Assembly: GCA_015232315.1 (NCBI GenBank)
Contig: JADFZZ010000041.1
Location: forward strand, 1,402-33,401
Length of the DNA: 32,000 nucleotides
Direction: 5' to 3'
From: SAR324 cluster bacterium
Lineage (GTDB): Bacteria; SAR324; NAC60-12
A model generated the notes under the pieces. The model was not told the DNA's origin and ran no database searches. It saw only the letters and a list, made by a program, of their open reading frames with translations. The position numbers and the translations under genes are program-made. Positions 1 through 26,130 of the stretch are shown here, in pieces; the stretch's first letter is position 1, and every line of letters starts with the position of its first letter.

Positions 1-245
1 CATTTTTCGGTATTATAATCAGAATGTACTATGATGAACATAGTCCGCCACACCTGCATGCGGAATATCAAGGGAAAAAAGCTGTATTTGATTTTGATGG
101 TAATGTAATCCATGGTAAACTTGGTTCCAGAACAGCCAAAAAATTGATTAGAGAGTGGATTGATCTGCATGAAATTGAACTAAAAGAGGATTGGGAATTA
201 GCTCATGCAGGAGAACAACTTAAAAAAATTCAACCATTAGATTGA
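1..245 (+). CDS. DUF4160-family small protein (5' end cut by window edge)
   Basis: The frame of ORF 24..245 stays open back to nt 3 ([22 protein letters not shown]...). It has the FYGIxIxM / H-PPH-H signature of DUF4160 and is clearly paralogous to the complete copy at 7948..8211. Confidence 0.8.
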
Positions 246-252
246 GGTTTAT

Positions 253-498
253 ATGTGGAATATGAATGAAATCACTCATATTGAATATAAAGACCAGTAT
301 ATCTATCATGTTGCATTCGATGATGGAACAAAGGGGGACATAGATTTTAAGGGCTATCTAAATAGAGGTACTATGTTTAAGCCTTTGAAAAATATTAGTT
401 ATTTTAAACAAGCAACAATTGATGGGGGTACTATAGCCTGGCCGAATGGACTCGATATCGCTCCTGAAACACTTTACGAAAAAATAAAAGCACTTTAA
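253..498 (+). CDS. DUF2442-family small protein
   Basis: 81 aa, starting 7 nt after the DUF4160 ORF. The C-terminal [18 protein letters not shown] motif is typical of DUF2442. Gene order matches 7948..8528. Confidence 0.75.
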
Positions 499-572: not shown

Positions 573-2894
573 ATGGTTGATAAAAAAGCGAAAAAAAAAG
601 AGAAACCGGACAAAATCCTGATTGACAAGTTTTTCAGTCAGATTGCTCAATACCATGAAAAAGCGCCCATTGGGGAGGAAGTTCGCCAGGCTGTACTGGA
701 ATTTCCTGAGTCTTATGAGTTGTTGTTGTTGAATGTGATGGTCTGTCTGTTTGAAAATAAAACAGGGATGGCCTTTCTGGCGCTTAAAAAAATAAGACAA
801 ATATACAGACCTCATATCAATGATTATATTATGGAGGCCCTGGCCTATGTTCAAAAAGGCGGACTGGGACAGGCCCGACAGATTCTTGAATCCCAGGAAA
901 TTGATAGTGTTTACCATCTTATACAAAACCTGTATGGAGGCATGAATTTAAGAGAATGGTTGCTCAAACAGTTCAATCCAATTTTTGAGTCAGGGTATTT
1001 GAAAAAATCGCTTCATGGTTCCTCCCGAAAACCAGACGTTACACCCTCCAGTAAGCAACCCTCCCGTCCTGATAAACCTGTGACACCACCGGGTCAGACT
1101 ACTCCATCCCCCCTGGAAACGCTGAAGAAAGAACTTGAAGAAAAGTATGCGCTTCCCCCGGTGTCGGCTAAAGTCCAGACACGCATGAATCTCAATCTGA
1201 ACGCTTTGACCTTGCCTGATCCCGCCCATTCATTTTCCTATGAGGAACAAAGCTGGTTTCAGTTACGCCATGAATTTCTGAAACTGGGATTACTGCGTGG
1301 CTTTGATGAATTGCTGTGCCTCCCTGCCTTACACAATGTGGACACTTACTGGTATCAGGTAGAAACGGTGCGCAAGGTTCTGAAACGTTTTCGCGGAAGA
1401 GTGTTGTTGGCCGATGAAGTGGGATTGGGGAAAACCATTGAAGCCGGAATGATTCTCAAGGAATATGTGTTGCGGGGAATGGCAGACCGTGTGCTGATCC
1501 TGACGCCGGCATCCCTTGTGGGACAATGGCAGGAAGAAATGAGTACCAAGTTCGGACTGGCATTTGAAACCAGTTACAATGCCCTGATGAAAAATTCACC
1601 GGAACAATTCTGGGCCTGTCCCCGGATCATTGCCTCCATCGCCAGCGCACGAAGGGCGGAACATTTTAACATCCTGACCCAAATGGAATTTGATCTGGTG
1701 ATTGTGGATGAGGCGCACCATCTAAAAAACCGCAACACACAGAACTGGAAACTGGTGGATGCGCTTCAGAAACGGTTTTTGTTACTGCTGTCTGCAACTC
1801 CGGTACAAAACAGCCTCGTGGAGTTATACAATTTGTTGACACTGCTGAAACCCGGAATTTTCAAAACCGAGAAAGAATTCAAAAGCAGTTACATGGTGAC
1901 GGGAAAACCCAGAGTTCCCGCCAATCGGGATCAGATGCGGGAGTTGATGCGTGAGGTCATGATTCGCAACACCCGCTCGTTGGTTGATGTCAAACTTCCG
2001 TTGCGTCATGCCATGACGATGATCCTGGAACCTGAAACAGAAGAATTCCAATGCTATCAGGAATTGCATTCCCTGGTTCAGGAATCCTGGCCGAAAATTC
2101 CGGCGTCTCAACGGATGGCTCTGCACATGCTACTGAGTTCCGCTGGCTCTTCTCCGGTGGCGGCCTGCTCAGGTTTAACCCGGTTTATAGAAAAGCATAA
2201 AGGCTCTTCCGCCTGGGAAAAACTGGCTCAACGTTACCAGAAATGCACTTCCGGGATCAAGGACCAGTCACTGATGGAATTGCTGGACAAAAATCCTGCG
2301 GAAAAAAAAATGATCTTTGTGCACCATTTGAGCACCATGGAACATTTATGCGACCAGCTTAAACTGCGCAAGCTTCCATTTTCCGTCTTTCATGGCGGCA
2401 TGAGCGGACCCGAAAAGGATCAGGCTATCGAGGATTTCCGAGAACAGACAACCGTTCTTGTGTGTACGGAATCGGGCGGCGAAGGGCGGAACGTGCAGTT
2501 TTGCAACACGCTGATCAATTATGACATTCCCTGGAATCCGATGCAGATTGAACAGCGCATTGGACGGATTCACCGGATCGGCCAGAAAAAAGAAGTGTTC
2601 ATCTTCAATCTGGCGGTCAAGGGAACCCTGGAAGAGCAGGTGCTTCGCATTCTGGATGAAAAAATCAATATGTTTGAACTGGTGGTGGGTGAAATCGGCG
2701 CCATCCTGGGTGAGTTGGAAGAAGAAACGGATTTTGCTGAAAGAGTGTTTAACGCATGGATTGAAACCACTGATGAACAACGAACTCAACGGTTTGATGA
2801 GTTGGCAGAACAAATTCTGTCCGCGAAAACTCAGTATGAAGATTCCAAATCACTGGATAATGAACTGTTCGGTGAAGATTTTGAAACAGGATGA
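573..2894 (+). CDS. SNF2-family (RapA/HepA-like) ATPase/helicase with ~260-aa unassigned N-terminal extension
   Basis: 773 aa with the full SNF2 motif set: ADEVGLGKTIEAG (Walker A), VIVDEAHHLKN (DEAH), LLLSATPVQNS, CTESGGEGRNVQF, WNPMQIEQRIGRIHRIGQKK. GAGG lies 6 nt upstream of ATG 573. Confidence 0.9.
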   Translation: MVDKKAKKKEKPDKILIDKFFSQIAQYHEKAPIGEEVRQAVLEFPESYELLLLNVMVCLFENKTGMAFLALKKIRQIYRPHINDYIMEALAYVQKGGLGQARQILESQEIDSVYHLIQNLYGGMNLREWLLKQFNPIFESGYLKKSLHGSSRKPDVTPSSKQPSRPDKPVTPPGQTTPSPLETLKKELEEKYALPPVSAKVQTRMNLNLNALTLPDPAHSFSYEEQSWFQLRHEFLKLGLLRGFDELLCLPALHNVDTYWYQVETVRKVLKRFRGRVLLADEVGLGKTIEAGMILKEYVLRGMADRVLILTPASLVGQWQEEMSTKFGLAFETSYNALMKNSPEQFWACPRIIASIASARRAEHFNILTQMEFDLVIVDEAHHLKNRNTQNWKLVDALQKRFLLLLSATPVQNSLVELYNLLTLLKPGIFKTEKEFKSSYMVTGKPRVPANRDQMRELMREVMIRNTRSLVDVKLPLRHAMTMILEPETEEFQCYQELHSLVQESWPKIPASQRMALHMLLSSAGSSPVAACSGLTRFIEKHKGSSAWEKLAQRYQKCTSGIKDQSLMELLDKNPAEKKMIFVHHLSTMEHLCDQLKLRKLPFSVFHGGMSGPEKDQAIEDFREQTTVLVCTESGGEGRNVQFCNTLINYDIPWNPMQIEQRIGRIHRIGQKKEVFIFNLAVKGTLEEQVLRILDEKINMFELVVGEIGAILGELEEETDFAERVFNAWIETTDEQRTQRFDELAEQILSAKTQYEDSKSLDNELFGEDFETG

Positions 2895-4051
2895 TTATGA
2901 GTTCACTGCTGAATTTTTTTGATAACGTCTTTTCCTTGCAAGGGGCCCAAACCGAATTTGTCGAACCGGAGGGACTGGATATTTTGATTCCGGAGGATTT
3001 ACAGACCACCATCAAAATCCCGGAAATGATACGACTCGGGTTTGGCGAAACCATCCCGCCAGGCGCGCAAAAGGTGAGCCTGGAATCAGACTGGTTTGAA
3101 AAAATTGAACAGTTGATGGCAGACAATGGCGGACTAAACCGGAAGATCTGGAACCTGCCGATCCCTTCCATGTCTGATCCTGAGCGAATGCTGGAACATA
3201 CCTTGTCGCTGTCCAATGCCACCTACCGTTATCAAAGCACCAAAGCCACCTGGAGTCGATACTGGTTTCTGAACTTTCACTACACGGCCCGCTCTGATGA
3301 AACCCGTGAAGGGTTATTGGGGCTTGGTTTCAATCTGGGCACAGGGAGTGTGCTGGATCTGGCTCTGGAACCCCTGCTAACGCAAATCAATGAATTACCC
3401 GCGTTAACCTCCGGAATGTCTGTTCCGGAACAGGAACTTCCCCAGCAATGGAGCGTCTCCCATTTGCAAACCATTTTGAAGCGAAGTATTCCGGAGCGGA
3501 TTCAACAGGATCTGGGCAAATTTCTGTCGGTGATCCAGCGTCACATGGACAATGATCTCAACCGGATTACCCAGTACCATCAGGATATGCGTGCGGAATC
3601 CATTGGAAAACTGCTCCAACTGACACAAAAAAAGGAATTGAGCGACAAACAGGAAAAGGAAAAACAGCGTCATGAGTTGAGACTGGAAGCGGTGCTCCGG
3701 GAATATCAGTCCAAGGTGAGTGACCTGTATCAGAAATACGCGCTGGATATTGAATGCACTCCGGTTCAGATCCTGGAAATTTTGATGCCTGTACAACGGT
3801 GTTTTGTCAATATCCTACGGCGCAAAGGACATAGAATGATCGCGCTCGACTGGAATCCGCTGGTAAAAAAACTGGAAGTCCCTCCTTGTGAATACACGTT
3901 CACCCGGGAAAGTTCGCGAATGGCCTGTGATGATCAGCTCCATCTCATCCATCCTGACGCGCACAAGCCTTGCCCCTCCTGTGAGAAGCCCTTCTGTAGA
4001 GCCTGTTTTCCCGTGCAATGTCCCAAATGCCAGAAAAAGTTCTGCCCCTGA
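2891..4051 (+). CDS. hypothetical protein, SNF2-coupled partner with C-terminal Cys-rich (zinc-ribbon-like) cluster
   Basis: ATG 2891 overlaps the SNF2 stop (ATGA at 2891-2894). 386 aa with no family I recognise. It has a charged coiled-coil (KKELSDKQEKEKQRHELRLEAVLREYQSK) and the C-terminal cluster CPSCEKPFCRACFPVQCPKCQKKFC (three CxxC pairs). Alternative start at ATG 2897. Confidence 0.7.
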   Translation: MIMSSLLNFFDNVFSLQGAQTEFVEPEGLDILIPEDLQTTIKIPEMIRLGFGETIPPGAQKVSLESDWFEKIEQLMADNGGLNRKIWNLPIPSMSDPERMLEHTLSLSNATYRYQSTKATWSRYWFLNFHYTARSDETREGLLGLGFNLGTGSVLDLALEPLLTQINELPALTSGMSVPEQELPQQWSVSHLQTILKRSIPERIQQDLGKFLSVIQRHMDNDLNRITQYHQDMRAESIGKLLQLTQKKELSDKQEKEKQRHELRLEAVLREYQSKVSDLYQKYALDIECTPVQILEILMPVQRCFVNILRRKGHRMIALDWNPLVKKLEVPPCEYTFTRESSRMACDDQLHLIHPDAHKPCPSCEKPFCRACFPVQCPKCQKKFCP

Positions 4052-4266
4052 GTGTTCGGCTCTCCTTGCAAGCCGACGGGATGACACAGGCAAACTGTAA
4101 AGTACGTTTGACTGAATTTGAAAGGTGCCGAAAAAACCATAGAGCCTAAAAATTCACGAAATAATACTTCTATCTTGGAACCTCTCCCCTGTCTGTGGTA
4201 AGACACCCGCCACTGTTAAAACTTCCAGACAATTCCTTCTCACCATTATTTCATTCTCAGTTCCGT

Positions 4267-7200
4267 ATGCGTATCAAAAGTTTGCACGTTTCAGGCTTCA
4301 AGTCCTTCTGTCATAAAGTGGAAATAGAGTTTCAACAAAACGGCGTTACTGTCATTGTCGGTCCCAATGGTTGTGGGAAAAGCAATGTGGTGGACGCAAT
4401 CCGCTGGGTGCTGGGAGAACAGCGGGCCAAGCATTTGCGCGGTGGCGCCATGGAAGACGTGATTTTTGCGGGTAGCGCCTTTCAAAAACCTCTGGGAATG
4501 GCTGAAGTGACCCTGACCTTTTCCAATCTGGATGGGGATGTGCTGACTAAATACATGGATTATACTGAAATTGCTGTCACCCGGCGATTGTACCGCTCTG
4601 GCGAAAGTATTTACATGATCAACAAAACTCCGGTCCGGCTCATGGATATCCGGGAATTGTTTATGGATACCGGCGTGGGTGGTGGCGGTTATTCGATCAT
4701 TGAGCAGGGAAAAGTCGGCGAAATCATCAGCGCCAAACCGTCAGAACGGCGGTTGCTCATTGAGGACGCTGCGGGAATTGTCAAATTTCAATCAAAACGC
4801 CAGCAGGCCGAAAAGCGCATGGAAGAAACCCTCCTGAATCTGAGTCGGGTCGATGACATTTTGAGAGAACTCCATCTTCAGGAAGAAACACTGCGGGATC
4901 AGGTGGTCAAGGCTCAGGCCTACATTCAGGTGCGGGATGAACTTCAGAAAACAGACCAGAACCTGTCTACTTTCCGCTGGAACAAGGCCATCCGCAAAGA
5001 ACAGGAATCAGAACAGACGATTTTGAAATACAAGGAACTTCAATTTGCCCTGCAAAATGAAAAAGCCACGTTGGAAACGGATATCGAACGGGTTTCACTT
5101 CAGGAAGCCATGGTGGAGAAGGAACTGGAAATTCTTCGTGAGGAATTGTTTCAACGGGAACGGGAAATTCAGGATCTGGACAACAAACGCGCTTTGGAAA
5201 AACAGAATATCGCCAACTTTCAGAGCTGGATTGACCGGCATGATGAGGAATTGACGGAACTGCGAGAAAAAATTGTGAATCTGCTCCAGCATCGGAGTGA
5301 AACCGATAATCATCTCGAACAACTCAAACAGCAGCACAAGGAGGTTCAAGCCTTTATCCAGAACATTGAACAGGAACGGTCTGAAGAAGAACTCAAACTG
5401 ACTGAGCTGAATACAGAAATGCAGCAGATGCAACGGAAACTCATCACAGTTCATACCGAATTGACCAACAATACCAATCAACGGTCTTTCATGCAGGATC
5501 GTCTGGATAATTTTCTGGACCGTCATTTGAAAATGAACGATCAATTGCGCTCCAGCGATCAGTTGATCCTTCAGTCAGAACGCAAGGTGGAACAGGCTCA
5601 AACCAAAGTGGAACTGGTTCAGAATGAAAAAGAAACGCAGGAAGAACACTTGCTGAAACTTCAGTCGGATTATGATTCTCAGGAAGAAGCGGTCGAGTTG
5701 ACCCAGTCACGTTTGAAAAAAACGCAGTACGATTTTCATGCCGCCAGTTCCCAATTGGAGTCTTTGAAAAACATTCAGACCCGACATGAGGATTTTGGCG
5801 ATAACGTCAAAAAACTGTTTGATCTTCTCGAAAAAAATCCTGACATGCGTCAACGTTTGGGAATCATGGGAATTCTGGCGGATTTCATTCATATTCCCGC
5901 CCAATATGTCGAACTCATTGGTCCTGTGATGGTCGATTATCTGGACTGGGTCATTGTGAAACAGGCAAACGCACTGCCTGACGTTGAGGCTTTTTGTCAG
6001 CAGAAGGGACTCGGGCGTCTGAATTATATTGCCCTCGATAAACTCGACTTTGACGCACAGCCTGCCACTGACGGACAGCCCATGTCCTCATTCATTGAGT
6101 TCAGAGGCGCGGTGGCCCATTGGGGACAGCGCTTTTTCGGCCTGATTCGGGTTCTTGAGGATTCCGGCAAGACAAACCTTGATCATTTGAATCGTTCTGT
6201 GTCAATCCAGAATACAGCAGAATGGTTGACCGTTAATGGAACGTATGTTCTGCGTAACGGCAGTGTGAGGATTGGCAAGACACAATCCACCACCTTTGGT
6301 TTTCTGGAACGACAGAAAAAGATTGATGAACTTCAGGAACAGACTGAAACCCTGGAAGAACAGGTTGAAGAACTGGAAGGGGACTTGCAGGAACTGACAG
6401 AACAGCAGGAACAACTGGAAGAGGCTATTCAGGAAACCCACGCCCGCACCCATGAACTTGAATTGGAATTATTAAGAAACAACAAGGAACTGGAACACGA
6501 TGTGCTGGAATTTAAACGGGCCCGTCAGGCCCATGAACTCCTGCAATCTGATCTGTCCCTGATTGAGAAGGAAAAAGAAAAGGTAACAGCAAGTCTCCAG
6601 AATGTCAGCGAAGCATTGGTCGCGCTTGAAGACAAACGGTCTGAACTGGAGGATCGACTGACGAGACAACAGGAATCGATCCTGATTCAGAAAAGAATGG
6701 TCGATCAGGTTTCTGAAAACCTGCTGGGACAGCGTGTCGCCTTGACTGAAGCTTTTGAACAATTGAAAAATGCCCAGAAAACAGTGGACCGATTGCATCA
6801 GGAGCATCGCGAAGCTGAAGTCCGACTGGTGATGTTGAACAACGCGCATGAGGATTCCAGAAAAAAGGTTGAACACAGCCAAAAAATAGTTTTCGAAATT
6901 GACGCGAAATTTGAAAACCTGCTGAAAGACCGTGAAGCCGCCAAAGCCCAGCAGGAAGAAACCGCTTTGAAACACCAGGATGTCAGTCAGGAACGCACTG
7001 AGAAAAACGCCGCTCTGCACAAGGTCCGGCAGGATCTGGAACTCCTCATGGGACAGATTCATGAAGAGGATCTGAAAACCACAGAATTCCGATTTCAGCG
7101 GGAACAACTCGAACAGCAGTTATTGACCAGTTACAACCTGACACCGGATGAACTTTCACAGAATCTGGATTTATCAGGGCTGAACGAGAACGAACTGGCT

Positions 7201-7851
7201 GGACAACTGAGAAGCCTGAGAGCAAAAATGGGCGCCATGGACCAGGTCAATCTGGCGGCTCCGGATGAATACGCGCTCCTGACAGAACGGATGGGATTTT
7301 TAACCCGGCAGTCGGATGATCTGAAACATGCTGTGGATGATTTGCAAAAAACCATACGTGAAATCAACAATGAATCCAGACGCCGATTCAGGGAAACATT
7401 TGACATGGTCAACATGCATTTCAAGGAAACCTTCACGACCTTGTTTGGTGGTGGTGACGCTAAAATGGTGCTGACCGAAGCTGAAGATATTCTTGAGGCC
7501 GGGATCGAGATTGTGGCTCAACCTCCTGGCAAGCGGCTTCAGAACCTTAATCTGTTTTCCGGTGGAGAAAAGGCTCTGACCGCGATTTCGCTCATCTTCG
7601 GGATTTTTCTGATCAAACCCAGTCCGTTCTGTTTGCTGGATGAGGTGGACGCACCACTGGACGACACCAACGTCGGTCGTTTCAACCACATGATCCGGAA
7701 GCTCACAGACAACTCACAATTTATTGTTATCACCCATAATAAAAAGACCATGGCGATAGGGGAACGGTTGTATGGTGTTACCATGGAAGAACCCGGTGTT
7801 TCAAAAACCGTTTCAGTTCAATTCAATGAAGCCGAATCTCTCACTGCTTAG
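4267..7851 (+). CDS. smc: chromosome condensation/segregation ATPase SMC
   Basis: The N-terminus MRIKSLHVSGFKSF...GPNGCGKSN..AIRWVLGEQ is canonical SMC. It has long coiled-coil arms, a hinge-like segment (GIMGILADFIHIPAQY), the signature LSGGEKALTA and Walker B CLLDEVDAPLDD. I place the start at ATG 4267 rather than the ORF-track start at 4195, because SMC proteins begin at the M-x-(I/L)K-x-L motif. Confidence 0.9.
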   Translation: MRIKSLHVSGFKSFCHKVEIEFQQNGVTVIVGPNGCGKSNVVDAIRWVLGEQRAKHLRGGAMEDVIFAGSAFQKPLGMAEVTLTFSNLDGDVLTKYMDYTEIAVTRRLYRSGESIYMINKTPVRLMDIRELFMDTGVGGGGYSIIEQGKVGEIISAKPSERRLLIEDAAGIVKFQSKRQQAEKRMEETLLNLSRVDDILRELHLQEETLRDQVVKAQAYIQVRDELQKTDQNLSTFRWNKAIRKEQESEQTILKYKELQFALQNEKATLETDIERVSLQEAMVEKELEILREELFQREREIQDLDNKRALEKQNIANFQSWIDRHDEELTELREKIVNLLQHRSETDNHLEQLKQQHKEVQAFIQNIEQERSEEELKLTELNTEMQQMQRKLITVHTELTNNTNQRSFMQDRLDNFLDRHLKMNDQLRSSDQLILQSERKVEQAQTKVELVQNEKETQEEHLLKLQSDYDSQEEAVELTQSRLKKTQYDFHAASSQLESLKNIQTRHEDFGDNVKKLFDLLEKNPDMRQRLGIMGILADFIHIPAQYVELIGPVMVDYLDWVIVKQANALPDVEAFCQQKGLGRLNYIALDKLDFDAQPATDGQPMSSFIEFRGAVAHWGQRFFGLIRVLEDSGKTNLDHLNRSVSIQNTAEWLTVNGTYVLRNGSVRIGKTQSTTFGFLERQKKIDELQEQTETLEEQVEELEGDLQELTEQQEQLEEAIQETHARTHELELELLRNNKELEHDVLEFKRARQAHELLQSDLSLIEKEKEKVTASLQNVSEALVALEDKRSELEDRLTRQQESILIQKRMVDQVSENLLGQRVALTEAFEQLKNAQKTVDRLHQEHREAEVRLVMLNNAHEDSRKKVEHSQKIVFEIDAKFENLLKDREAAKAQQEETALKHQDVSQERTEKNAALHKVRQDLELLMGQIHEEDLKTTEFRFQREQLEQQLLTSYNLTPDELSQNLDLSGLNENELAGQLRSLRAKMGAMDQVNLAAPDEYALLTERMGFLTRQSDDLKHAVDDLQKTIREINNESRRRFRETFDMVNMHFKETFTTLFGGGDAKMVLTEAEDILEAGIEIVAQPPGKRLQNLNLFSGGEKALTAISLIFGIFLIKPSPFCLLDEVDAPLDDTNVGRFNHMIRKLTDNSQFIVITHNKKTMAIGERLYGVTMEEPGVSKTVSVQFNEAESLTA

Positions 7852-7947: not shown

Positions 7948-8211
7948 ATGCCAGAGTTAAGCCGGTTTTACGGAATCATCATCTATATGTTTGCTAAGGA
8001 CCATCCCCCACCTCATTGTCATGTAAAATATGGTGAGTACATGGGGTTGATCAATATTAAAACTGGAGAATTGATTGAGGGAAAACTGCCTCTAAGAGCG
8101 TTACGATTAGTGCAGGATTGGATTGACCTTCATCAAGCGGACTTAGAAAAAAACTGGGAAGAAGCACAAACAGATCACCCTGACTTTCAAAAAATCGAAC
8201 CATTGGAATAG
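7948..8211 (+). CDS. DUF4160-family small protein
   Basis: 87 aa. MPELSRFYGIIIYMFAKDHPPPHCHVKY is the DUF4160 N-terminal signature. Paralogue of 1..245. Confidence 0.8.
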   Translation: MPELSRFYGIIIYMFAKDHPPPHCHVKYGEYMGLINIKTGELIEGKLPLRALRLVQDWIDLHQADLEKNWEEAQTDHPDFQKIEPLE

Positions 8212-8213
8212 TT

Positions 8214-8528
8214 ATGCTTCATGTGATTAAAAAAATTAAACAAGTGACACCATTTTCCCTGATTCTACTTTTCAATACGGGCGAAACTGTACACGTTGAT
8301 TTAGGTAATAAATTGAAGGAATGGTCTCAATCGCCAAAAAGCAAATTTAAAGCATTACTGGATCCAGCTTATTTTCAGAGTGTAAAATTGGACAACGATG
8401 CCCAGACCATATGTTGGGATAATGGAATAGACTTATGTCCTGATGTATTATATTCGATGGGAAAAGTTATAACTGTGTCAAATAAAGTATCTCAAAAAAT
8501 TGCGAAAGAAAGTATCGTAATTGGATAA
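8214..8528 (+). CDS. DUF2442-family small protein
   Basis: 104 aa, starting 2 nt after the DUF4160 ORF. The ICWDNGIDLCPDVLY motif is equivalent to [15 protein letters not shown] in 253..498. Confidence 0.7.
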   Translation: MLHVIKKIKQVTPFSLILLFNTGETVHVDLGNKLKEWSQSPKSKFKALLDPAYFQSVKLDNDAQTICWDNGIDLCPDVLYSMGKVITVSNKVSQKIAKESIVIG

Positions 8529-8573
8529 ACCTGTTTTTAAATTTTCTTTGTATATATTTTTCAGGATCATGTC

Positions 8574-10364
8574 ATGCAAGATGCGTCAACAAATGAAACA
8601 GTGCTGGTGATTGATGATGATGAACTTGTTCAGGAAATGCTGTTCGAATTCCTGTCAGACAGTGGCTACAGGGTGCTGGTCGCGGCCAACGGTCAAACAG
8701 CTCTTGAAATTTATGAACGTGAATCGCCCAATGTCATCATCACCGACCTGCGAATGCCGGAAATGGATGGCATCGGTTTTTTGAAAAAACTGCCTCGTAA
8801 AACCGCTATTAGTCCGGCCGTGATCGTCTTGACAGGTTATGACACCATGGATGAACTCGATCTCAGCTATGATCTGGGCGTCTACGCGTTTCTGAGAAAG
8901 CCTGCCAATCTGCATGAAATTTCCGGAATCGTCAGGAATGCGGCCATGCTATGTTCCTATGATGAACAGTTGCGACGGGAAAAAGATTCGTTGAAACAAG
9001 CCTATATCACTATTGAGGAAGAACAGCGAGCTAACCAGAAAATGCATCGTGAACTGGAAGAAAAACATCTTGTGCTGCAAAAAACATTTGAAAGCATGGC
9101 CGAAGGTGTCGCGGTTCTGGACACCCTGTTCCAGATCCATATGATCTCTCACAAGGCTTGCAAGATCCTCGGAGTTGAAGAAACCAGTGTCCTTAATAAA
9201 CCGGCAGCGGCTATTTTAGGAACTGAAATCGCCGGCCCCTCCGGAGAATTGATTAAAAACAGCCCCATTCGGGAACCGCTCTATAATATCTCCACCAATC
9301 TGTTGTCTCCGTCTGGTACGGTTATTCCTGTTCAGTTGTCCATCATTCCACTGGAACCGGAAATTTATCCGGGTTGGATGCTCCTGTTCCGGGATATCCG
9401 GAATGAAGAAAAGCAGACCCGTGAAACCTCGGGGGGCATACGCTTTGGAAAAATGATCAGTTGCGATTCGGTCATGCATGAAATCTTCAGTCTGGTGGAT
9501 AAAGTCGCCTTGAGTAATGCCACTGTTCTCATTGAGGGCGAAAGCGGAACAGGCAAGGATGTCCTTGCGCGTGAAATCCATGCCAGAAGTCACAGGGCAC
9601 AAGGTCCCTTCCACACGGTGAATTGCGCGGCCATTTCCCCCCATCTGCTGGAAAGCGAATTTTTCGGGCATGAGCGGGGAGCCTTCACAGGAGCGTCTTA
9701 TACCAAACAGGGACGTTTTGAACTGGCAAATAACGGAACCCTGTTTCTTGACGAAGTGGGCGAAATTCCGCTGGAACTCCAGGGAAAACTCCTGAGAGTT
9801 CTTCAGGATCGTTCCTTTGAGAGAGTTGGTGGAACAAAAACGATTCAGGTGAATGTTCGCATCATCGCAGCCACCAACCGTGATTTGAAGCAATTGACTG
9901 ACGAAAAATTATTCCGGACTGATCTGTATTTTCGCTTGCATGTTGTTCCCTTCAGACTTCCCGCCTTGAGAGACCGTATTCAGGATCTGCACCTACTCAT
10001 CCAGCAGTTGATTCAGGAGTTCAACAAACGTGAAAACCGTAATGTCAAAGGTGTGGATAAAGAGGTCCTGCAACGGTTTCTGCAGCATTCATGGCCGGGG
10101 AATATCAGGGAATTGTATCATTTACTGGAATACGCGTTTGCGGTCAGTTCTGAAGACACGTTGATGATCCAGCATTTTCCACCTGAATTCATCGCATCAC
10201 TGGTTGATACACAGGAGTTGCCTATTCCAGACAGCGAGCGTGAATTTTTGTTACAGGCTCTGCAACGGGTAAATTTCAGAAAATCCAAAGCCGCCGCCCT
10301 GGTGGGAATGCATCGGTCTACGTTTTACCGTAAAATGAAAAAATACGGACTTCAGGGGAGTTGA
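8574..10364 (+). CDS. sigma54-dependent response regulator (REC-PAS-AAA+-Fis-type HTH), NtrC family
   Basis: REC domain with DDDE acidic pocket and ITDLRMPEMDG. AAA+ core with GESGTGKDVLAREIH, ESEFFGHERGAFTGA (GAFTGA sigma54-contact loop), LFLDEVGE and RIIAATNRDL. C-terminal HTH AAALVGMHRSTFYRKMKKYGL. Confidence 0.9.
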   Translation: MQDASTNETVLVIDDDELVQEMLFEFLSDSGYRVLVAANGQTALEIYERESPNVIITDLRMPEMDGIGFLKKLPRKTAISPAVIVLTGYDTMDELDLSYDLGVYAFLRKPANLHEISGIVRNAAMLCSYDEQLRREKDSLKQAYITIEEEQRANQKMHRELEEKHLVLQKTFESMAEGVAVLDTLFQIHMISHKACKILGVEETSVLNKPAAAILGTEIAGPSGELIKNSPIREPLYNISTNLLSPSGTVIPVQLSIIPLEPEIYPGWMLLFRDIRNEEKQTRETSGGIRFGKMISCDSVMHEIFSLVDKVALSNATVLIEGESGTGKDVLAREIHARSHRAQGPFHTVNCAAISPHLLESEFFGHERGAFTGASYTKQGRFELANNGTLFLDEVGEIPLELQGKLLRVLQDRSFERVGGTKTIQVNVRIIAATNRDLKQLTDEKLFRTDLYFRLHVVPFRLPALRDRIQDLHLLIQQLIQEFNKRENRNVKGVDKEVLQRFLQHSWPGNIRELYHLLEYAFAVSSEDTLMIQHFPPEFIASLVDTQELPIPDSEREFLLQALQRVNFRKSKAAALVGMHRSTFYRKMKKYGLQGS

Positions 10365-10366
10365 TT

Positions 10367-12763
10367 ATGGCCGATGTTACTTTTCTGCTGGGAACAGGCC
10401 TCGGAGTACTGTTTTGCGGACTATGCTGGATTGTTCATTACTGGTTCGTTCTGCGAAAGAAGCAGTCAGGCAATTCCGCAATGAGTCAGAACATTGACGA
10501 AGATGGGCAGACTTCCAATAACATCAGGTTTACAACCACTGAGGTTCAGCAGCGGGCGATTCTGGACGCAATCCATGACGCGATGTTTCGTATCAGGAAA
10601 GATGGCCCCTTCTATGATTTTATTCCGGCTGAAAATTTTAACAAAATCATTTCAGGTTCGTTGTCGAATGAAAACGAACTCACCTCCCTGAACATTGCCC
10701 GAGAATCACTGCATTACCTGAAAGCCATGGAACATATTCAACTGATTCTGGAATCGGAAGGTCCGTTGGTTTATGAATATCATGTGGAACTGGAACATCA
10801 AAAAAAAGATTATGAAGCACGCATGGTTCGCAGTGGTGAGAATGAAGTTCTGATCATCGTCCGGGATGTCACTGAACACAACCGCACAAGAAATACCTTG
10901 ACCCGCTTCCGTTTTTTTATGGATCAGGCCGGTGAAGCCATTTTGCTGGTTGATCCCGAAACTCGAAAAATCATAGATTTCAACAAAACCGCCACCGATT
11001 ATCTTCAATATTCCGCGGCAGAGCTTCATGGTCTCCTGCTTGAAAATATCCGTTCTGATCAGTTCACCCAGACCCCGAGGAAGTGGAAGGAATATCTGGA
11101 AATGCTGCGTAGTATGGACAAACCGCTGGTTACCCAGGGCACCTTTCATCGCAAGGATCGTTCGTGGTTTTATACGGAAACAGTGGCCTCAACCCAGGTG
11201 TTTGAAGACCAGGAATATCTGTTGCTGACGATTAGAGACATCACCGAACGGAAAGAAGCCGGAGAGCAACTCGCACGGCTGGTTACGGCTATTGAACAAA
11301 TGGCGGAATCCATCATCGTCACGGATCCCAACGGGATTATTCTATATGTCAATCCGGCATTCCGAAACACCACCGGCTTTCAAGGATTTGAGGTCATCGG
11401 GCACCGTCCCAGTATTCTGAAAAGCGGACTTCATGATACGGTGTTTTATGAAAACCTGTGGAAAACCATTCAGGAGGGAAATGTGTGGCACGGGCATATT
11501 TTCAACCGTAAAAAATCTGGAGATCTGCTCCAGGTGAACTCCACTATTTCACCTGTTTTGGATGCGGCGGGGCACATCATCAATTTCATTGCGATCCAAC
11601 ATGATGTGACCTATGAAAAACAATTAGAATCCCACATACGGCAGTCGCAGAAAATGGAAGCCATCGGGACGCTTGCCGGAGGAATTGCCCATGATTTTAA
11701 TAACATGCTGTTTGCCATGATGGGGTATACCGAAATGGCGAGTCAAAAGCTGCCACGCAACTCCAGACCCCGACAGCAACTGGAAGAAGTGCTGCAGGTG
11801 GGACAACGGGCAAAAGAGCTGATTCAGCAGATTTTAACCTTCAGTCGCAGAAATGAGCAGGAGTTCCGGACGTTCCAGATTCAACCACTGGTGAAAGAAG
11901 TGATTAAAATGATCAAGGCGACACTTCCCTCAACCATTCAGGTTCATGAAATAGTTCCGGAAGAATTGCCGGTAATCACGGGTGATTCAACCCAGATCCA
12001 TCAGGTGCTGATCAATTTATTCACCAATGCGGCTTATGCCATGAAAGAAAAAGGCGGTTTGCTGGAAATTGAACTCTCCGCAGTCATGCTGGACAAAGAC
12101 CAGTCCCAATGGTTATCACTGACTCCCGGAAATTATATTCTGATCGCGATCAAAGATACAGGTGTTGGTATTCCCCCTGAAATTCTGCATCGGATATTTG
12201 ATCCTTTTTTTACGACAAAACCCGTGGATGAAGGAACAGGCATGGGCTTGGCCGTAGTGCATGGAATCGTGGAAAACCATCATGGAACAATCAGTGTTGA
12301 AAGCACACCGGGCAAAGGAAGTGTTTTCAATGTTTACCTGCCGGCTTCCAGGGGTGAACATCCGGTTGTTGAGAAAAAGATCAAACAGCGCATCAAAGGA
12401 AAAGGCCGAATCATAATGGTGGATGATGAGCCGATTCTGGCGGAAATGGTCAAAGAGATGTTGATGACAGCAGGTTTTTCGGTAGAGGCCTACACAAACA
12501 GTCAAATCACCCTGGACGCCTTTACTAATAATCCGCATAACTATGACATTCTGATCACAGACCAGACCATGCCGGAAATGTCCGGCGTCGCTTTGGCCGA
12601 GGCTGTTGCCGGAATCAGACCTGAATTTCCGGTGATTCTGATCTCCGGCCAAATTGATCGGGCCTTAACCATCAACGCTACCAATATTGTCGCGGTATTG
12701 GGTAAACCTATTTCGTCACAGGAACTTATTAACGAAATCAAGAAAGCTATCAGCGATCATTGA
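10367..12763 (+). CDS. hybrid sensor histidine kinase (TM - multiple PAS - HisKA - HATPase_c - REC)
   Basis: N-terminal TM helix, followed by PAS-like repeats that each end in a motif such as RDITERK or QHDVTYEK. H-box GGIAHDFNNML; ATPase boxes NLFTNAAYAM, DTGVGIPPE and GTGMGLAVVHGIV; C-terminal receiver IIMVDDEP...ITDQTMPEMSG. GGGGAG Shine-Dalgarno 6 nt before ATG 10367; the ORF-track start TTG 10361 is less likely. Confidence 0.9.
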   Translation: MADVTFLLGTGLGVLFCGLCWIVHYWFVLRKKQSGNSAMSQNIDEDGQTSNNIRFTTTEVQQRAILDAIHDAMFRIRKDGPFYDFIPAENFNKIISGSLSNENELTSLNIARESLHYLKAMEHIQLILESEGPLVYEYHVELEHQKKDYEARMVRSGENEVLIIVRDVTEHNRTRNTLTRFRFFMDQAGEAILLVDPETRKIIDFNKTATDYLQYSAAELHGLLLENIRSDQFTQTPRKWKEYLEMLRSMDKPLVTQGTFHRKDRSWFYTETVASTQVFEDQEYLLLTIRDITERKEAGEQLARLVTAIEQMAESIIVTDPNGIILYVNPAFRNTTGFQGFEVIGHRPSILKSGLHDTVFYENLWKTIQEGNVWHGHIFNRKKSGDLLQVNSTISPVLDAAGHIINFIAIQHDVTYEKQLESHIRQSQKMEAIGTLAGGIAHDFNNMLFAMMGYTEMASQKLPRNSRPRQQLEEVLQVGQRAKELIQQILTFSRRNEQEFRTFQIQPLVKEVIKMIKATLPSTIQVHEIVPEELPVITGDSTQIHQVLINLFTNAAYAMKEKGGLLEIELSAVMLDKDQSQWLSLTPGNYILIAIKDTGVGIPPEILHRIFDPFFTTKPVDEGTGMGLAVVHGIVENHHGTISVESTPGKGSVFNVYLPASRGEHPVVEKKIKQRIKGKGRIIMVDDEPILAEMVKEMLMTAGFSVEAYTNSQITLDAFTNNPHNYDILITDQTMPEMSGVALAEAVAGIRPEFPVILISGQIDRALTINATNIVAVLGKPISSQELINEIKKAISDH

Positions 12764-12779
12764 TCCTCTGAGTTCCACA

Positions 12780-12820
12780 GCGTCCGTCAAAGTCGTTTGA
12801 GACGCCCGGATTTGCGTTTC
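12780..12820 (+). terminator. possible rho-independent terminator after the kinase gene
   Basis: Bulged hairpin GCGTC-cg-TCAAA-gtcg-TTTGA-GACGC (12780-12805), followed by a moderately T-rich tail CCGGATTTGCGTTTCTG. The stem is interrupted and the tail is weak. Confidence 0.3.
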
Positions 12821-12831
12821 TGAAAACTTGA

Positions 12832-12862
12832 CTATAAAAATAGTTTCATGAAACTTTTATAG
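12832..12862. promoter_or_regulatory. 31-nt AT-rich near-palindrome upstream of ilvD (candidate operator)
   Basis: CTATAAAA-ata-AGTTTCATGAAACT-TTTATAG. The core AGTTTCATGAAACT (12842-12855) is a perfect 14-nt palindrome and the outer arms CTATAAAA/TTTTATAG are complementary. It overlaps a TTGACT hexamer at 12828-12833. Confidence 0.3.
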
Positions 12863-12924
12863 AAAATGTTCCATTCCATTCCACGGAATGTTCCGCAATG
12901 ATCACCTCTAATCAGAAAAGCGCT

Positions 12925-14778: not shown

Positions 14779-14940
14779 AGCTGATCCTGAGGAATCACGG
14801 TGGTTGTACTCATGAATCCTTCGTCAAAGTTTGTTTCACATTCCGGGCTATAGTCATCAGTTCGCCAATCAACGGAAAAAACCGTACAAGACCATACCGG
14901 AAATGATAAGTACCTGATCAAAAGTTTTTAACATTAATCT

Positions 14941-15130
14941 GGTTCCCTACCTCTGGTGCAAGGCTGTTAAGTTAAGAAATTACCTGCGAGAAAATCCCCC
15001 TTTTCAAAGGGGGCATGGGGGATTTAAAGCTCAGAATAACATCCCCCTAACCCCCTTAAACCAAGGGGGAATTGGTGCCAGTGACTTCACAGAGCTTAAC
15101 TTAACAGACGTGTACCTCTGGTGGGGAACC
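14941..15130. repeat. 190-bp MITE/REP-like element with 36-nt imperfect terminal inverted repeats and internal C5/G5 hairpins
   Basis: The left arm GGTTCCCTACCTCTGGTGCAAGGCTGTTAAGTTAAG (14941-14976) matches the reverse complement of the right arm (15095-15130) at 29 of 36 positions by my count, including perfect GGTTCCC and CTGTTAAGTTAAG blocks. Internal hairpins are CCCCCTTttcAAGGGGG (14996-15013) and CCCCCTTaaaccAAGGGGG (15051-15069). It lies between the convergent genes ilvD and 15199..15708. Confidence 0.6.
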
Positions 15131-15198
15131 GGAAAAACATGGGATTTCACCAGAATTTGCAAGAAGCATACGCCTAACACGAGTTATTGATTTTCCGG

Positions 15199-15708: not shown

Positions 15709-15802
15709 GTCCCTCCTCGGTTAGTAATTATATGATGAATAATGCCTACAATGAATTTGCCTATGAAAAAACTCAAATGGTTTTTCAGGGGATTTTCAAA
15801 AA

Positions 15803-19545: not shown

Positions 19546-19574
19546 AAGATTCAAGAGTGTGGTTCTTGAATCTT
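19546..19574 (-). terminator. stem-loop terminator downstream of the OmpA-like gene (possibly bidirectional)
   Basis: Perfect 11-bp stem AAGATTCAAGA / TCTTGAATCTT with a 7-nt loop, starting 37 nt after the stop at 19611. Moderately U-rich sequence follows it on both strands. Confidence 0.45.
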
Positions 19575-19610
19575 GTTTCTTTCCCTTGAGGAGATTCCAT
19601 CAACCGTGGC

Positions 19611-26118: not shown

Positions 26119-26130
26119 AACAAGGACTGT

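What the first reader, a model, noticed from the sequence alone, without database searches (positions are those of the whole stretch)
573..4051. SNF2 ATPase translationally coupled to an uncharacterised Cys-rich partner: candidate two-gene module
Seen: the 773-aa ORF has the complete SNF2 motif set. Its TGA (2892-2894) is nested in the ATG of the next ORF (ATGA), the classic arrangement for translational coupling of stoichiometric partners. The 386-aa partner matches no family I can name. It has a ~200-aa N-terminal globular part, a charged coiled-coil, and the C-terminal cluster CPSC-x5-CRAC-x5-CPKC-x4-C preceded by C..C..H..H, which suggests one or two zinc sites. Established: bacterial SNF2 ATPases are known either as the stand-alone RNAP recycler RapA/HepA or as motor subunits of multi-gene anti-phage systems (DrmD in DISARM, ZorD in Zorya). 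Inference: none of the other DISARM or Zorya genes is present. The pair is therefore either a new accessory arrangement of a RapA-type enzyme or a compact, undescribed SNF2-based nucleic-acid surveillance or remodelling module.
Basis: partly seen in the sequence, partly recalled or inferred. Interest (0 to 1): 0.65.

Follow-up and report, generated by a model that had tools for sequence, protein, structure and literature searches.

The report
Split RapA-like motor with YqhG-type partner
The two overlapping genes are real and together look like the bacterial RNA-polymerase-recycling motor RapA cut into two proteins, a motor and a zinc-binding rear module distantly related to the uncharacterised Bacillus YqhG; this gives the partner a testable role, but it is a variant of a known kind of enzyme, not a new system.

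Summary
A 773-aa SNF2 ATPase gene (573-2894) overlaps a 386-aa partner gene (2891-4051) by ATGA.

The pairing is not chance. In all 74 related loci with enough upstream DNA, an orthologous SNF2 gene sits directly upstream on the same strand, and the two proteins co-diverge (Mantel r 0.84).

The partner does have relatives. It is a distant member of the YqhG family (PF11079; hhalign E 4e-6). The SNF2 protein is 39-41% identical to Bacillales YqhH, the gene that precedes yqhG.

An AlphaFold model of Bacillus YqhG hits only E. coli RapA in the PDB (E 1e-5). The SNF2 family aligns to RapA residues 92-666 and the partner to about 711-961. The pair is therefore a RapA-architecture enzyme split into two chains. 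RapA's Tudor N-domain is replaced by a TPR-like domain, and the partner carries an extra C-terminal zinc cluster.

Distribution is patchy: 3 of 61 relatives and 8 of 81 Pyrinomonadaceae. Versions occur on plasmids. No defence genes and no conserved third gene are linked to it here, and the downstream smc is coincidental.

Function is inferred, not shown: most likely removal of RNA polymerase or another protein from DNA.

This scan has reached the same reading on other genomes.

The parts
573..2894 (+). SNF2-family ATPase gene (773 aa), YqhH-type motor subunit
   Evidence: ORF. Pfam SNF2-rel_dom and Helicase_C. 39-41% identity over about 480-500 aa to Bacillales YqhH, against 195 summed bits to E. 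coli RapA and 100-226 bits to the five other SNF2 paralogues of the same genome.
630..977 (+). N-terminal TPR-like helical domain (about aa 20-135), found only in this clade; it sits where RapA has its Tudor NTD
   Evidence: Conserved in alignment A2 and absent from the 560-585-aa Bacillus, cyanobacterial and haloarchaeal forms. Eight of 10 orthologous N-termini give weak TPR-family hits, all below cut-off. The window protein itself gives none.
1014..1127 (+). Pro/Lys/Thr-rich, poorly conserved linker (about aa 148-185)
   Evidence: Variable in length and sequence in alignment A2.
1137..2864 (+). Swi2/Snf2 ATPase core, aa 189-764, equivalent to RapA residues 92-666
   Evidence: hhalign of the SNF2 alignment A2 against an alignment of 13 RapA proteins: probability 100%, E 1.9e-60, 507 columns.
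2841..2891 (+). Conserved acidic C-terminal tail (LDxxLFGE[ED]FE-type), candidate docking peptide (inference)
   Evidence: L761, D762, F766 and G767 are invariant in all 22 sequences of A2, including the cyanobacterial plasmid form.
2891..2894 (+). ATGA start/stop overlap of the two genes
   Evidence: Read directly.
2891..4051 (+). Partner gene (386 aa), distant YqhG-family protein; equivalent of the C-terminal module of RapA
   Evidence: ORF. Family alignment A1. hhalign against Bacillales YqhG: E 4.1e-6. The YqhG model hits only RapA in the PDB.
2900..3589 (+). Region homologous to YqhG (aa 4-233): N-terminal alpha/beta domain, long beta-hairpin carrying the invariant A-x-S-D-E-K-R-x-G motif, and the first coiled-coil helix
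   Evidence: hhalign A1 against A3, 203 columns, partner 4-233 to YqhG 4-223. Weak colinear PF11079 hits in 11 of 23 family members.
3455..3736 (+). Antiparallel coiled-coil hairpin (aa 189-282) with a variable tip
   Evidence: AlphaFold2 model, helices 189-245 and 252-282, pLDDT 86-97. Indels at the tip in A1.
3746..3856 (+). Long beta-hairpin (aa 286-322) with the conserved RRRKGER and LDWNP motifs
3887..4030 (+). Clade-specific Cys/His cluster (C333, C346, H351, C361, C364, C369, C372, C377, C380), probably two zinc sites
   Evidence: All nine residues are invariant in 23 sequences. The cluster is absent from the cyanobacterial plasmid (346 aa) and Bacillus (264-271 aa) partners, and a simpler CxxC...CxxC replaces it in a haloarchaeal partner. 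Only weak HypA, RING or FYVE-like resemblances were found. Metal binding is inferred.

Best explanation
The two genes encode the two subunits of a RapA-architecture Swi2/Snf2 ATPase of the YqhH/YqhG type.

What is shown: the 773-aa protein is the motor. It holds a TPR-like N-terminal domain, a flexible linker and an ATPase core equivalent to RapA residues 92-666. The 386-aa protein corresponds to the rear part of RapA, about residues 711-961. That is roughly the Spacer and C-terminal domains, including the beta-sheet with two long inserted helices. Here it is made as a separate chain, with a lengthened coiled coil and an added C-terminal Cys/His cluster. The pair is inherited as a unit.

What is inferred: the subunits assemble about 1:1. 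The start/stop overlap would favour this, and the invariant acidic tail of the motor is a candidate docking peptide. The complex would bind double-stranded DNA next to a stalled protein-DNA complex and use ATP-driven translocation or domain closure to pry that protein off. The most likely target is RNA polymerase, as for RapA, whose Spacer domain wedges into the opened polymerase cleft. RapA's Tudor N-domain, which pulls on the beta-prime zinc-binding domain, is missing. Target recognition must therefore work differently, possibly through the TPR-like domain and the partner's zinc cluster.

In this lineage the pair is an accessory, horizontally acquired module, not a core gene pair.
For: Adjacency: an orthologous SNF2 gene (48-66% identity) lies directly upstream and co-oriented in 74 of 74 related loci with enough flank, across at least 8 phyla. 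The same holds for distant plasmid relatives at 22-37% partner identity.

Co-divergence: Mantel r is 0.84 over 21 loci, with 0 of 2000 permutations as high.

Partner is YqhG-like: 11 of 23 family members give colinear weak PF11079 hits. In six-frame whole-genome searches, the only PF11079 match falls inside the partner gene in 2 of 5 genomes. hhalign of A1 against Bacillales YqhG gives probability 86.9%, E 4.1e-6, 203 columns.

Same gene order in Bacillales: the SNF2 gene is followed by a gene annotated 'YqhG family protein' in Brevibacillus, and by a 271-aa ORF that is 99% identical to a PF11079-annotated YqhG in Bacillus. The window SNF2 is 39-41% identical to those YqhH proteins over the whole core.

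YqhG resembles RapA: the top five PDB hits of the YqhG AlphaFold2 model are all E. coli RapA (E 1.2e-5 to 6e-3, probability 0.84-1.00, about 290 columns). These include N-terminally truncated RapA. The next hit has E 0.15.

Tiling of RapA: the SNF2 family aligns to RapA 92-666 (E 1.9e-60). The partner (2-269) aligns to RapA 711-961 and YqhG (1-246) to RapA 710-958, the same register from two independent alignments, though each is weak (E 0.024 and 0.15).

[quoted passage not shown] That is what the partner and YqhG models show. [quoted passage not shown]

No RapA over the NCBIfam cut-off was seen in this genome or in G065, which also carries the pair.
Against: The window partner's own model did not bring up RapA among its 50 best PDB hits; the best hits were driven by the coiled coil, with E at least 0.1. 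The link to RapA is therefore transitive: partner to YqhG to RapA.

Direct sequence-profile matches of the partner to RapA are not significant on their own. PF11079 scores stay below Pfam's cut-off.

The RapA N-domain, which experiments show to be essential for clamp opening, is absent, so a RapA-like mechanism cannot be transferred as it stands.

In B. subtilis the RapA homologue found experimentally with RNAP, in a PcrA-bait pull-down that also enriched RNAP subunits, is YwqA. No pull-down or other direct binding data for YqhH or YqhG was found in the papers read. The only phenotype found is reduced UV survival of a B. thuringiensis yqhH knockout.

The patchy distribution, the plasmid copies beside par/mob/rep genes and the haloarchaeal neighbourhoods with DUF1156 methylase and DUF499 ATPase fit a role in conflicts with mobile DNA at least as well.
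Confidence: 0.55

Rival explanations
1. The pair is a compact module for conflicts with mobile DNA: anti-phage or anti-plasmid defence, or a plasmid-borne counter-defence or maintenance function. A RapA-like split motor would act on foreign DNA or on polymerases bound to it, as the RapA-like BrxHII helicases do in type 3 BREX and BREX-related (BR/MANTIS-type) systems.
For: Distribution is patchy even within families: 214 of about 185,000 species, 3 of 61 relatives, 8 of 81 Pyrinomonadaceae. Copies occur on plasmids. In cyanobacterial MOBP plasmids they lie beside ParA/ParB or MobC/relaxase and are 94-97% identical between genera. A Rhodovastum plasmid carries the pair beside RepB/RepA and IS elements. 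In three haloarchaeal plasmids the pair lies next to a DUF1156 methyltransferase and DUF499/AAA ATPase genes. These are the core genes of the BR systems, whose own helicase has the RapA domain architecture (PMC12839542). Toxin-antitoxin-like genes often lie nearby or between the two genes.
Against: PADLOC gives only generic sub-family SNF2 hits for the motor and nothing credible for the partner. No methylase, nuclease or other defence gene is linked in the window or in the bacterial chromosomal loci, and no third gene is conserved. Neighbours are housekeeping genes such as smc, ilvD, leuCD, asd and ABC transporters. There is no hit in 50,697 phage records. YqhG clusters occur across many Bacillales genera, and in the two loci examined the homologous pair sits beside the gcv operon. 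No nuclease or other effector domain is detectable in either protein.
Confidence: 0.22
2. The pair works with the downstream SMC protein in chromosome organisation, as a three-gene SNF2-partner-smc operon.
For: smc lies on the same strand 216 nt downstream. No terminator-like or promoter-like site was detected in the spacer.
Against: SMC was found next to the pair in 0 of 80 related loci (tblastn; clustering). The smc gene is the ordinary housekeeping one (TIGR02168, 979 bits against a cut-off of 567). Downstream neighbours of the pair vary in family, size and strand.
Confidence: 0.04
3. The pair is a DNA-damage or replication-transcription-conflict factor that acts on DNA structures, for example by fork or R-loop remodelling, and not on RNA polymerase itself.
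For: A B. thuringiensis yqhH knockout survives UV less well, and the purified protein is reported to have ATPase and unwinding activity (PMC10054049). The haloarchaeal pair is followed by PD-(D/E)XK and UvrD-type genes. Zinc modules are common in DNA-damage sensors (general knowledge).
Against: There is only one phenotypic report, on a distant orthologue. No repair genes are linked in the window or in most loci. The structural match is specifically to RapA, whose rear domains contact RNAP.
Confidence: 0.15

Closest known systems
Bacillus yqhH (also called hepA) - yqhG gene pair; YqhG is Pfam PF11079, function unknown
   Same: Same two-gene layout: an SNF2 gene followed by a co-oriented partner gene. 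The motor cores are 39-41% identical. The partner is homologous to YqhG by profile-profile comparison over about 200 residues. Both partners have an N-terminal alpha/beta domain, a long beta-hairpin, a helical hairpin and a closing beta-strand.
   Different: The window motor has an extra 190-aa N-terminus (TPR-like domain plus linker). The window partner is 120 aa longer, with a much longer coiled coil, a second beta-hairpin strand and a 9-ligand Cys/His cluster. PF11079 is not reached at Pfam's threshold. YqhG clusters are found across many Bacillales genera, whereas the window type is patchy and horizontally spread.
E. coli RapA (HepA), the Swi2/Snf2 RNA-polymerase recycling ATPase (PDB 6BOG, 4S20, 7M8E, 8T0L)
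   Same: The ATPase core is homologous (E 1.9e-60, RapA 92-666). The partner family matches the rear of RapA by fold and in register (about 710-960). RapA is also the closest solved structure by sequence for the motor.
   Different: This is two polypeptides and not one. RapA's tandem Tudor N-domain, which binds the beta-prime zinc-binding domain, is absent and replaced by a TPR-like domain. A zinc cluster is added. The NCBIfam RapA score is 243 bits against a cut-off of 576. RNAP binding is untested.
[quoted passage not shown]
   Same: These are RapA-like domain architectures used in anti-phage systems (PMC12839542). Haloarchaeal plasmid versions of the split pair lie beside DUF1156 and DUF499/AAA genes. 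PADLOC BrxHI/HII and DrmD models give generic hits to the motor.
   Different: No methyltransferase, DUF499 ATPase, PglZ or nuclease gene is linked in the window or in the bacterial chromosomal loci. Those helicases are single chains of about 940 aa with a Tudor domain.
DISARM DrmD and Zorya ZorD
   Same: SNF2-family ATPase core.
   Different: Scores are far below the equivalog cut-offs: DrmD 253 against 610 and 245 against 950, ZorD 85 against 1500. None of the other DISARM or Zorya genes is present in the window. A separate DrmD_b-like gene exists elsewhere in the same genome.

Membership tests
YqhH-YqhG two-gene module (PF11079 partner) | Partner matches Pfam PF11079 at or above the gathering score (25 bits) | tested here: not met
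   The window partner has no PF11079 hit. The best hit in a family member is 15.1 bits, E 0.012, and 11 of 23 members hit weakly and colinearly.
YqhH-YqhG two-gene module (PF11079 partner) | Partner is homologous to YqhG by profile-profile comparison | tested here: met
   hhalign A1 against A3: probability 86.9%, E 4.1e-6, 203 columns, partner 4-233 to YqhG 4-223. A whole-genome PF11079 search lands inside the partner gene in 2 of 5 genomes.
YqhH-YqhG two-gene module (PF11079 partner) | Partner gene lies directly next to, and co-oriented with, a YqhH-type SNF2 gene | tested here: met
   True in the window, in 74 of 74 related loci and in Bacillus and Brevibacillus in the same order. Motor identity to YqhH is 39-41%.
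YqhH-YqhG two-gene module (PF11079 partner) | Compact motor of about 560 aa without an N-terminal extension | tested here: not met
   The window motor is 773 aa, with a TPR-like N-domain and a linker.
RapA (NCBIfam NF003426 equivalog) | Score at or above the curated cut-off (576 bits) | tested here: not met
   243.5 bits.
RapA (NCBIfam NF003426 equivalog) | Swi2/Snf2 ATPase core homologous to that of RapA | tested here: met
   hhalign A2 against the RapA alignment: E 1.9e-60, residues 189-764 to RapA 92-666. RapA is the best PDB sequence match.
RapA (NCBIfam NF003426 equivalog) | N-terminal tandem Tudor-like domain that binds the RNAP beta-prime zinc-binding domain | tested here: not met
   The alignment to RapA starts at RapA residue 92. 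The preceding 190 aa are TPR-like plus a linker.
RapA (NCBIfam NF003426 equivalog) | Spacer and C-terminal domains following the core in the same polypeptide | tested here: not met
   The motor ends at the equivalent of RapA 666. The equivalent of RapA about 711-961 is supplied by the separate partner gene.
RapA (NCBIfam NF003426 equivalog) | Binds RNA polymerase and releases it from post-termination complexes | not testable with these tools
   A biochemical property. Described for E. coli RapA in the papers read.
DISARM (DrmD motor) | DrmD equivalog score over the cut-off, with linked drmA, drmB and drmC or methylase genes | tested here: not met
   252.7 against 610 and 245.1 against 950 bits. 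No DrmA/B/C or methylase among the window neighbours scanned or the clustered neighbours of the related loci.
Zorya (ZorD motor) | ZorD equivalog score over the cut-off, with linked zorA, zorB and zorC | tested here: not met
   85 against 1500 bits. No ZorABC in the window.
BREX-related DUF499/DUF1156 systems (BR, MANTIS) | Helicase gene linked to a DUF499 AAA+ ATPase and a DUF1156 N6-methyltransferase | tested here: not met
   Absent from the window and from the bacterial chromosomal loci. Present next to the haloarchaeal plasmid relatives.
SNF2 with a SWIM zinc-finger partner (YwqA-type arrangement, recalled from memory) | Partner carries a SWIM domain (CxCxnCxH, Pfam PF04434) | tested here: not met
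   No SWIM hit for the window partner or 23 relatives, even at E up to 5. The Cys pattern is different.

The most novel reading that the evidence does not exclude
The split RapA-like pair is a self-contained mobile module that plasmids and chromosomal islands exchange because it acts on foreign or competing DNA. For example, it might evict RNA polymerase or replication or partition proteins from invading or rival replicons, with the fast-evolving zinc-bearing partner as the specificity subunit. This would be a defence or plasmid-competition principle based on stripping proteins from DNA and not on cutting it. It would also explain why BREX-related systems recruit the same architecture.
Probability: 0.15. 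Interest if true: 0.75.

Novelty: new variant of a known kind. Interest (0 to 1): 0.45.

Why it matters
YqhG is a 'function unknown' family found across many Bacillales genera, and its SNF2 neighbour YqhH/HepA is barely studied. If YqhG-type proteins are the detached rear module of RapA, the family has a concrete, testable role: a subunit of a two-piece motor that strips proteins from DNA. It also shows that the RapA architecture is modular. N-terminal targeting domains are swapped (Tudor, TPR-like or none), and the rear module takes on zinc clusters of different kinds.

The window-type variant is horizontally mobile, and relatives sit on plasmids and beside BREX-related genes. Working out its target (RNA polymerase or something else) would bear on how bacteria without RapA recycle stalled polymerases. 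It would also show whether RapA-like motors are used in conflicts with mobile DNA.

None of this overturns current knowledge. It extends a known enzyme class.

Tried and rejected
1. Direct family searches of the partner in Pfam, NCBIfam and PADLOC found nothing at threshold. The one PADLOC hit (Cas13c, E 0.003, within the coiled-coil and beta-hairpin region, aa 210-320) was dismissed as a coiled-coil artefact.

2. Foldseek of the partner's own model against the PDB and BFVD found nothing below E 0.04. The best hits were driven by the coiled coil (serine integrase, DksA2, HP0958, Skp, SMC-like). I considered a DksA/Gre-like secondary-channel probe and rejected it, because the coiled-coil tip is the least conserved part of the family.

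3. A PDB sequence-profile search with A1 gave only insignificant RING/FYVE-like matches to the Cys cluster.

4. Looking for a conserved third gene by clustering all ORFs of 80 loci found none. Shared neighbours occur only between closely related genomes. A roughly 200-aa protein with a weak HTH hit is inserted between the two genes in 5 Blastocatellia/Acidobacteriota loci.

5. The SMC link was rejected (0 of 80 loci).

6. A search for genuine YqhG in the phylum of the Heliomicrobium genome found none in 201 genomes. Bacillales sequences had to be reached through mislabelled 'plasmid' records.

7. The maximum-likelihood tree of SNF2 proteins was uninformative about RapA. Its branch was saturated (length 10) and its placement unresolved. 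The tree supports only the clade of window-type plus cyanobacterial plasmid forms (99% SH-aLRT) and the YqhH pair. I relied on pairwise scores and hhalign instead.

8. The own-genome paralogue L097, first suspected to be RapA, is DrmD_b-like.

9. A PD-(D/E)xK reading of the invariant S-D-E-K-R motif was considered. The motif sits in a hairpin turn and no nuclease family matched, so it is left open.

10. The two flanking DUF4160/DUF2442 pairs are not repeats. They are 40% identical at protein level with no DNA similarity, so they do not mark an inserted element.

Full report
**1. Observation**

The window holds a 773-aa ORF at 573-2894 and a 386-aa ORF at 2891-4051, both on the + strand. The junction reads gATGAttATG. 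The partner's ATG (2891-2893) overlaps the motor's TGA (2892-2894), and a second in-frame ATG follows at 2897.

The first protein has SNF2-rel_dom (5.5e-35) and Helicase_C (8e-25). It stays far below every NCBIfam equivalog cut-off: DrmD 253 of 610, DrmD_b 245 of 950, RapA 243 of 576, DpdE 230 of 500, ZorD 85 of 1500.

The second protein has no hit at threshold in Pfam, NCBIfam or PADLOC.

The CxxC pairs are four residues apart. Of the His and Cys residues listed, only C333, C346, H351 and the six Cys of the three CxxC pairs are invariant in the family.

**2. The pair is a conserved unit**

The partner has full-length homologues of 370-395 aa. There are 42 clusters in the word-indexed search and 653 representative clusters in the exhaustive search.

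A scan of one genome per species found relatives in 214 of about 185,000 species. They are spread over Bipolaricaulota, Acidobacteriota, Gamma- and Alphaproteobacteria, Magnetococcales, Clostridia/Heliobacteria, Myxococcota, Armatimonadota, Binatota and others.

In the 80 loci kept, every one of the 74 with enough upstream DNA has an orthologous SNF2 gene (48-66% identity) directly upstream on the same strand. The six without a hit have less than 0.85 kb of upstream sequence.

The 4-nt overlap recurs in about ten loci. Most others have gaps of 1-40 nt. In a set of mainly Acidobacteriota (Blastocatellia/Pyrinomonadaceae) loci, plus one Clostridia locus, one or two small genes are inserted between the pair. 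These include a CcbP-like gene, a roughly 200-aa protein with a weak HTH hit, a PIN gene and a 23S-rRNA-IVP gene.

Pairwise identities of the two proteins are strongly correlated over 21 loci (Mantel r 0.84, 0 of 2000 permutations as high). The partner evolves faster (mean identity 45% against 56%).

No third gene is conserved. Shared neighbours occur only between closely related genomes. The smc gene downstream in the window is the ordinary housekeeping gene (TIGR02168, 979 bits). It accompanies the pair in none of the 80 loci.

**3. Distribution and context**

The pair is accessory. It was found in 3 of 61 relatives of the window's genome, a SAR324-like MAG by the 96%-identical database hit. 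It was found in 8 of 81 sampled Pyrinomonadaceae.

Chromosomal neighbourhoods are housekeeping genes with occasional toxin-antitoxin genes. They are not defence islands. No phage record carries a relative.

Plasmids do carry relatives.
- A Rhodovastum plasmid has the full-type pair beside RepB/RepA and IS elements.
- Mobilizable cyanobacterial plasmids (Nostoc, Calothrix, Oscillatoria) carry a short version: a 569-aa motor and a 346-aa partner that lacks the Cys cluster. It lies beside ParA/ParB or MobC/relaxase. The motors are 94-97% identical between genera.
- Haloarchaeal plasmids carry a 585-aa motor overlapping an approximately 385-397-aa partner that ends in CxxC...CxxC. That pair lies next to DUF1156 methyltransferase and DUF499/AAA ATPase genes.

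**4. What the partner is**

A permissive Pfam scan of the 23 aligned family members showed weak but colinear hits to PF11079 (YqhG) in 11 of them (best E 0.012). It also showed weak hits to the HypA zinc-ribbon region in 14.

In six-frame whole-genome searches with PF11079, the only match fell inside the partner gene in two of five genomes that carry the pair.

Bacillales sequences were reached through two records filed as plasmids.
- In Brevibacillus laterosporus an SNF2-related gene is followed 72 nt later by a gene annotated 'YqhG family protein' (401 aa).
- In Bacillus sp. N5-665 a 560-aa SNF2 ORF is followed by a 271-aa YqhG ORF, downstream of two ORFs whose sizes fit gcvPA and gcvT. This matches the arrangement annotated in Brevibacillus.

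A profile-profile comparison of the partner family with 13 Bacillales YqhG proteins gave probability 86.9%, E 4.1e-6 over 203 columns (partner 4-233 to YqhG 4-223).

The window motor is 39-41% identical to the two YqhH proteins over 480-500 residues (327-345 bits). It gives 195 summed bits against E. coli RapA and 100-226 bits against the five other SNF2 paralogues of its own genome.

The window pair is therefore a divergent form of the yqhH-yqhG module.

**5. What YqhG is**

An AlphaFold2 model of Bacillus YqhG (34-sequence alignment, pLDDT 80.6) was searched against the PDB. Its five best hits were all E. coli RapA: 8T0L 1.2e-5, 6BOG 1.9e-5, 8SPG 1.9e-5, 8SO8 2.0e-5 and 4S20 6e-3. About 290 columns were aligned. 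Two of these entries are N-terminally truncated RapA. The next hit had E 0.15.

The Foldseek output gives no target coordinates, so I located the match by sequence profiles.
- The SNF2 family aligns to RapA 92-666 (probability 100%, E 1.9e-60).
- The partner family (2-269) aligns to RapA 711-961 (E 0.024) and the YqhG family (1-246) to RapA 710-958 (E 0.15). Both are individually weak, but they fall in the same register.

The two proteins thus tile RapA from the end of its N-domain to its C-terminus.

A recent comparative study describes what follows the Snf2 core in RapA and BrxHII. First comes a degenerate restriction-endonuclease-like alpha+beta domain. [quoted passage not shown] This matches the secondary-structure layout of the YqhG and partner models.

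Caveat: the window partner's own model (pLDDT 85.3) did not retrieve RapA among its 50 best hits. Its long coiled coil dominated the search. The RapA link for the window protein therefore runs through YqhG.

**6. What is special about the window-type clade**

- The motor has an extra N-terminus: a helical domain with weak TPR-family hits in 8 of 10 orthologues (none in the window protein itself), followed by a variable Pro/Lys-rich linker. It sits where RapA has its Tudor N-domain. The Bacillus, cyanobacterial and haloarchaeal motors have no such domain.
- The partner has a longer coiled coil, a complete second beta-hairpin and a cluster of eight Cys and one His that are invariant in 23 sequences. 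The cluster resembles interleaved zinc modules only weakly. Zinc binding is inferred.
- All motors, including the plasmid forms, end in a conserved acidic tail containing LD..LFG. I propose it as a docking peptide; this is inference only.

**7. Mechanism**

Shown: homology, architecture, linkage and co-divergence.

Inferred: the two chains assemble into a RapA-like machine. For E. coli RapA, published structures show three contacts. The RecA-like domains hold the beta flap-tip. The N-domain pulls the beta-prime zinc-binding domain to open the clamp. The Spacer domain wedges into the opened cleft (bioRxiv 10.1101/2024.09.28.614012).

By analogy the partner would provide the wedge or contact module and the motor the ATP-driven movement. 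The lever that RapA needs (its N-domain) is missing, however, so the target and the way it is gripped may differ.

Direct evidence for YqhH/YqhG is thin. YqhH is called HepA and grouped with RNAP-interacting translocases in a B. subtilis paper, without direct data (PMC7385302). The RapA homologue actually recovered with RNAP subunits in a B. subtilis PcrA-bait pull-down is YwqA (PMC3797733 and PMC12448304). A B. thuringiensis yqhH knockout is more UV-sensitive (PMC10054049).

I put about 0.85 on the structural statement (a split RapA-type enzyme of the YqhH/YqhG family). I put about 0.4 on RNA polymerase being the target, and 0.55 on the combined statement as worded.

**8. Rivals**

A role in conflicts with mobile DNA is favoured by the patchy distribution, the plasmid copies and the haloarchaeal neighbourhoods. 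It is disfavoured by the lack of any linked defence gene or effector domain in the window and in the bacterial chromosomal loci, and by the YqhG clusters across many Bacillales genera.

A functional link to smc is rejected (0 of 80 loci).

A DNA-repair role rests on one report.

**9. Novelty**

The gene pair exists in annotation (YqhH/HepA, YqhG family) but is uncharacterised. I found no paper that links YqhG to the RapA C-terminal module.

After I had reached this reading, a look-up of this scan's earlier notes showed that follow-up agents had reached the same 'split RapA-like SNF2 plus YqhG-type partner' reading on at least 19 other genomes. One was a pair with an ATGA overlap and an 8-Cys tail. 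Those notes agree with my result but are not independent evidence.

I class the finding as a new variant of a known kind, of moderate interest.

Noticed in passing
window 3-498 and 7948-8528: Two DUF4160 + DUF2442 small-gene pairs (toxin-antitoxin-like; one DUF2442 protein weakly resembles the DhiA antitoxin) bracket the SNF2-partner-smc block. They are only about 40% identical at protein level and share no DNA similarity, so they are not repeats marking an insertion.
   Followed up: partly
window 4195-7851: Housekeeping smc (TIGR02168, 979 bits). The family model aligns from residue 26 of the GTG-started ORF, so the real start is probably the ATG at 4267, 216 nt after the partner gene. No promoter-like or terminator-like site was detected in the spacer. 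No kleisin (scpA/scpB) family hit among the downstream ORFs scanned (7948-14778); the remainder of the window (14779-32000) was not scanned.
   Followed up: partly
G000 contig C6, 86301-89237 (loci L097/L105): The same genome encodes a 979-aa SNF2 protein that scores 709 bits on the DISARM DrmD_b model (cut-off 950), and four further SNF2 paralogues. This may be a DISARM-like system elsewhere in the genome. Its neighbours were not examined.
   Followed up: no
L005:1088-2059, L006:6967-7923, L014:7390-7965, L016:7333-7971, L066:3014-3784; also L013:7572-7943, L036:7553-7972: In a set of mainly Acidobacteriota (Blastocatellia/Pyrinomonadaceae) loci, plus one Clostridia locus, the SNF2 and partner genes are separated by inserted genes. 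A roughly 200-aa protein with a weak HTH_3 hit is conserved in 5 loci, sometimes preceded by a CcbP-like calcium-binding protein. Elsewhere a PIN-domain gene or a 23S-rRNA-IVP four-helix-bundle gene is inserted. The roughly 200-aa protein may be a lineage-specific third subunit.
   Followed up: partly
L089 (Nostoc p057_E), L090 (Oscillatoria pOSC7112.03), hits H7 and H8: The short SNF2 motor is 94-97% identical between plasmids of Nostoc, Calothrix and Oscillatoria, and lies beside ParA/ParB or MobC/relaxase genes. This suggests recent spread of the pair with a mobilizable plasmid backbone.
   Followed up: partly
L093, L102, L103 (haloarchaeal plasmids): A split SNF2 + zinc-ribbon partner pair (8-nt overlap) lies next to DUF1156 methyltransferase and DUF499/AAA ATPase genes. 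These are the core genes of the recently described BREX-related (BR/MANTIS-type) systems, whose usual helicase is a single-chain RapA-like protein. The split pair may replace that helicase there.
   Followed up: partly
L092:5773-6978 (Brevibacillus laterosporus): This YqhG family protein is 401 aa because of a roughly 130-aa low-complexity insertion at the tip of the helical hairpin. That is the same place where the window-type partners have their long coiled coil, so the tip is a hotspot for expansion.
   Followed up: no
window 8574-14778: A sigma-54-dependent response regulator (8574-10364) overlaps a PAS-rich hybrid histidine kinase (10361-12763) and is followed by ilvD (12898-14778). These are ordinary chromosomal genes.
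   Followed up: no
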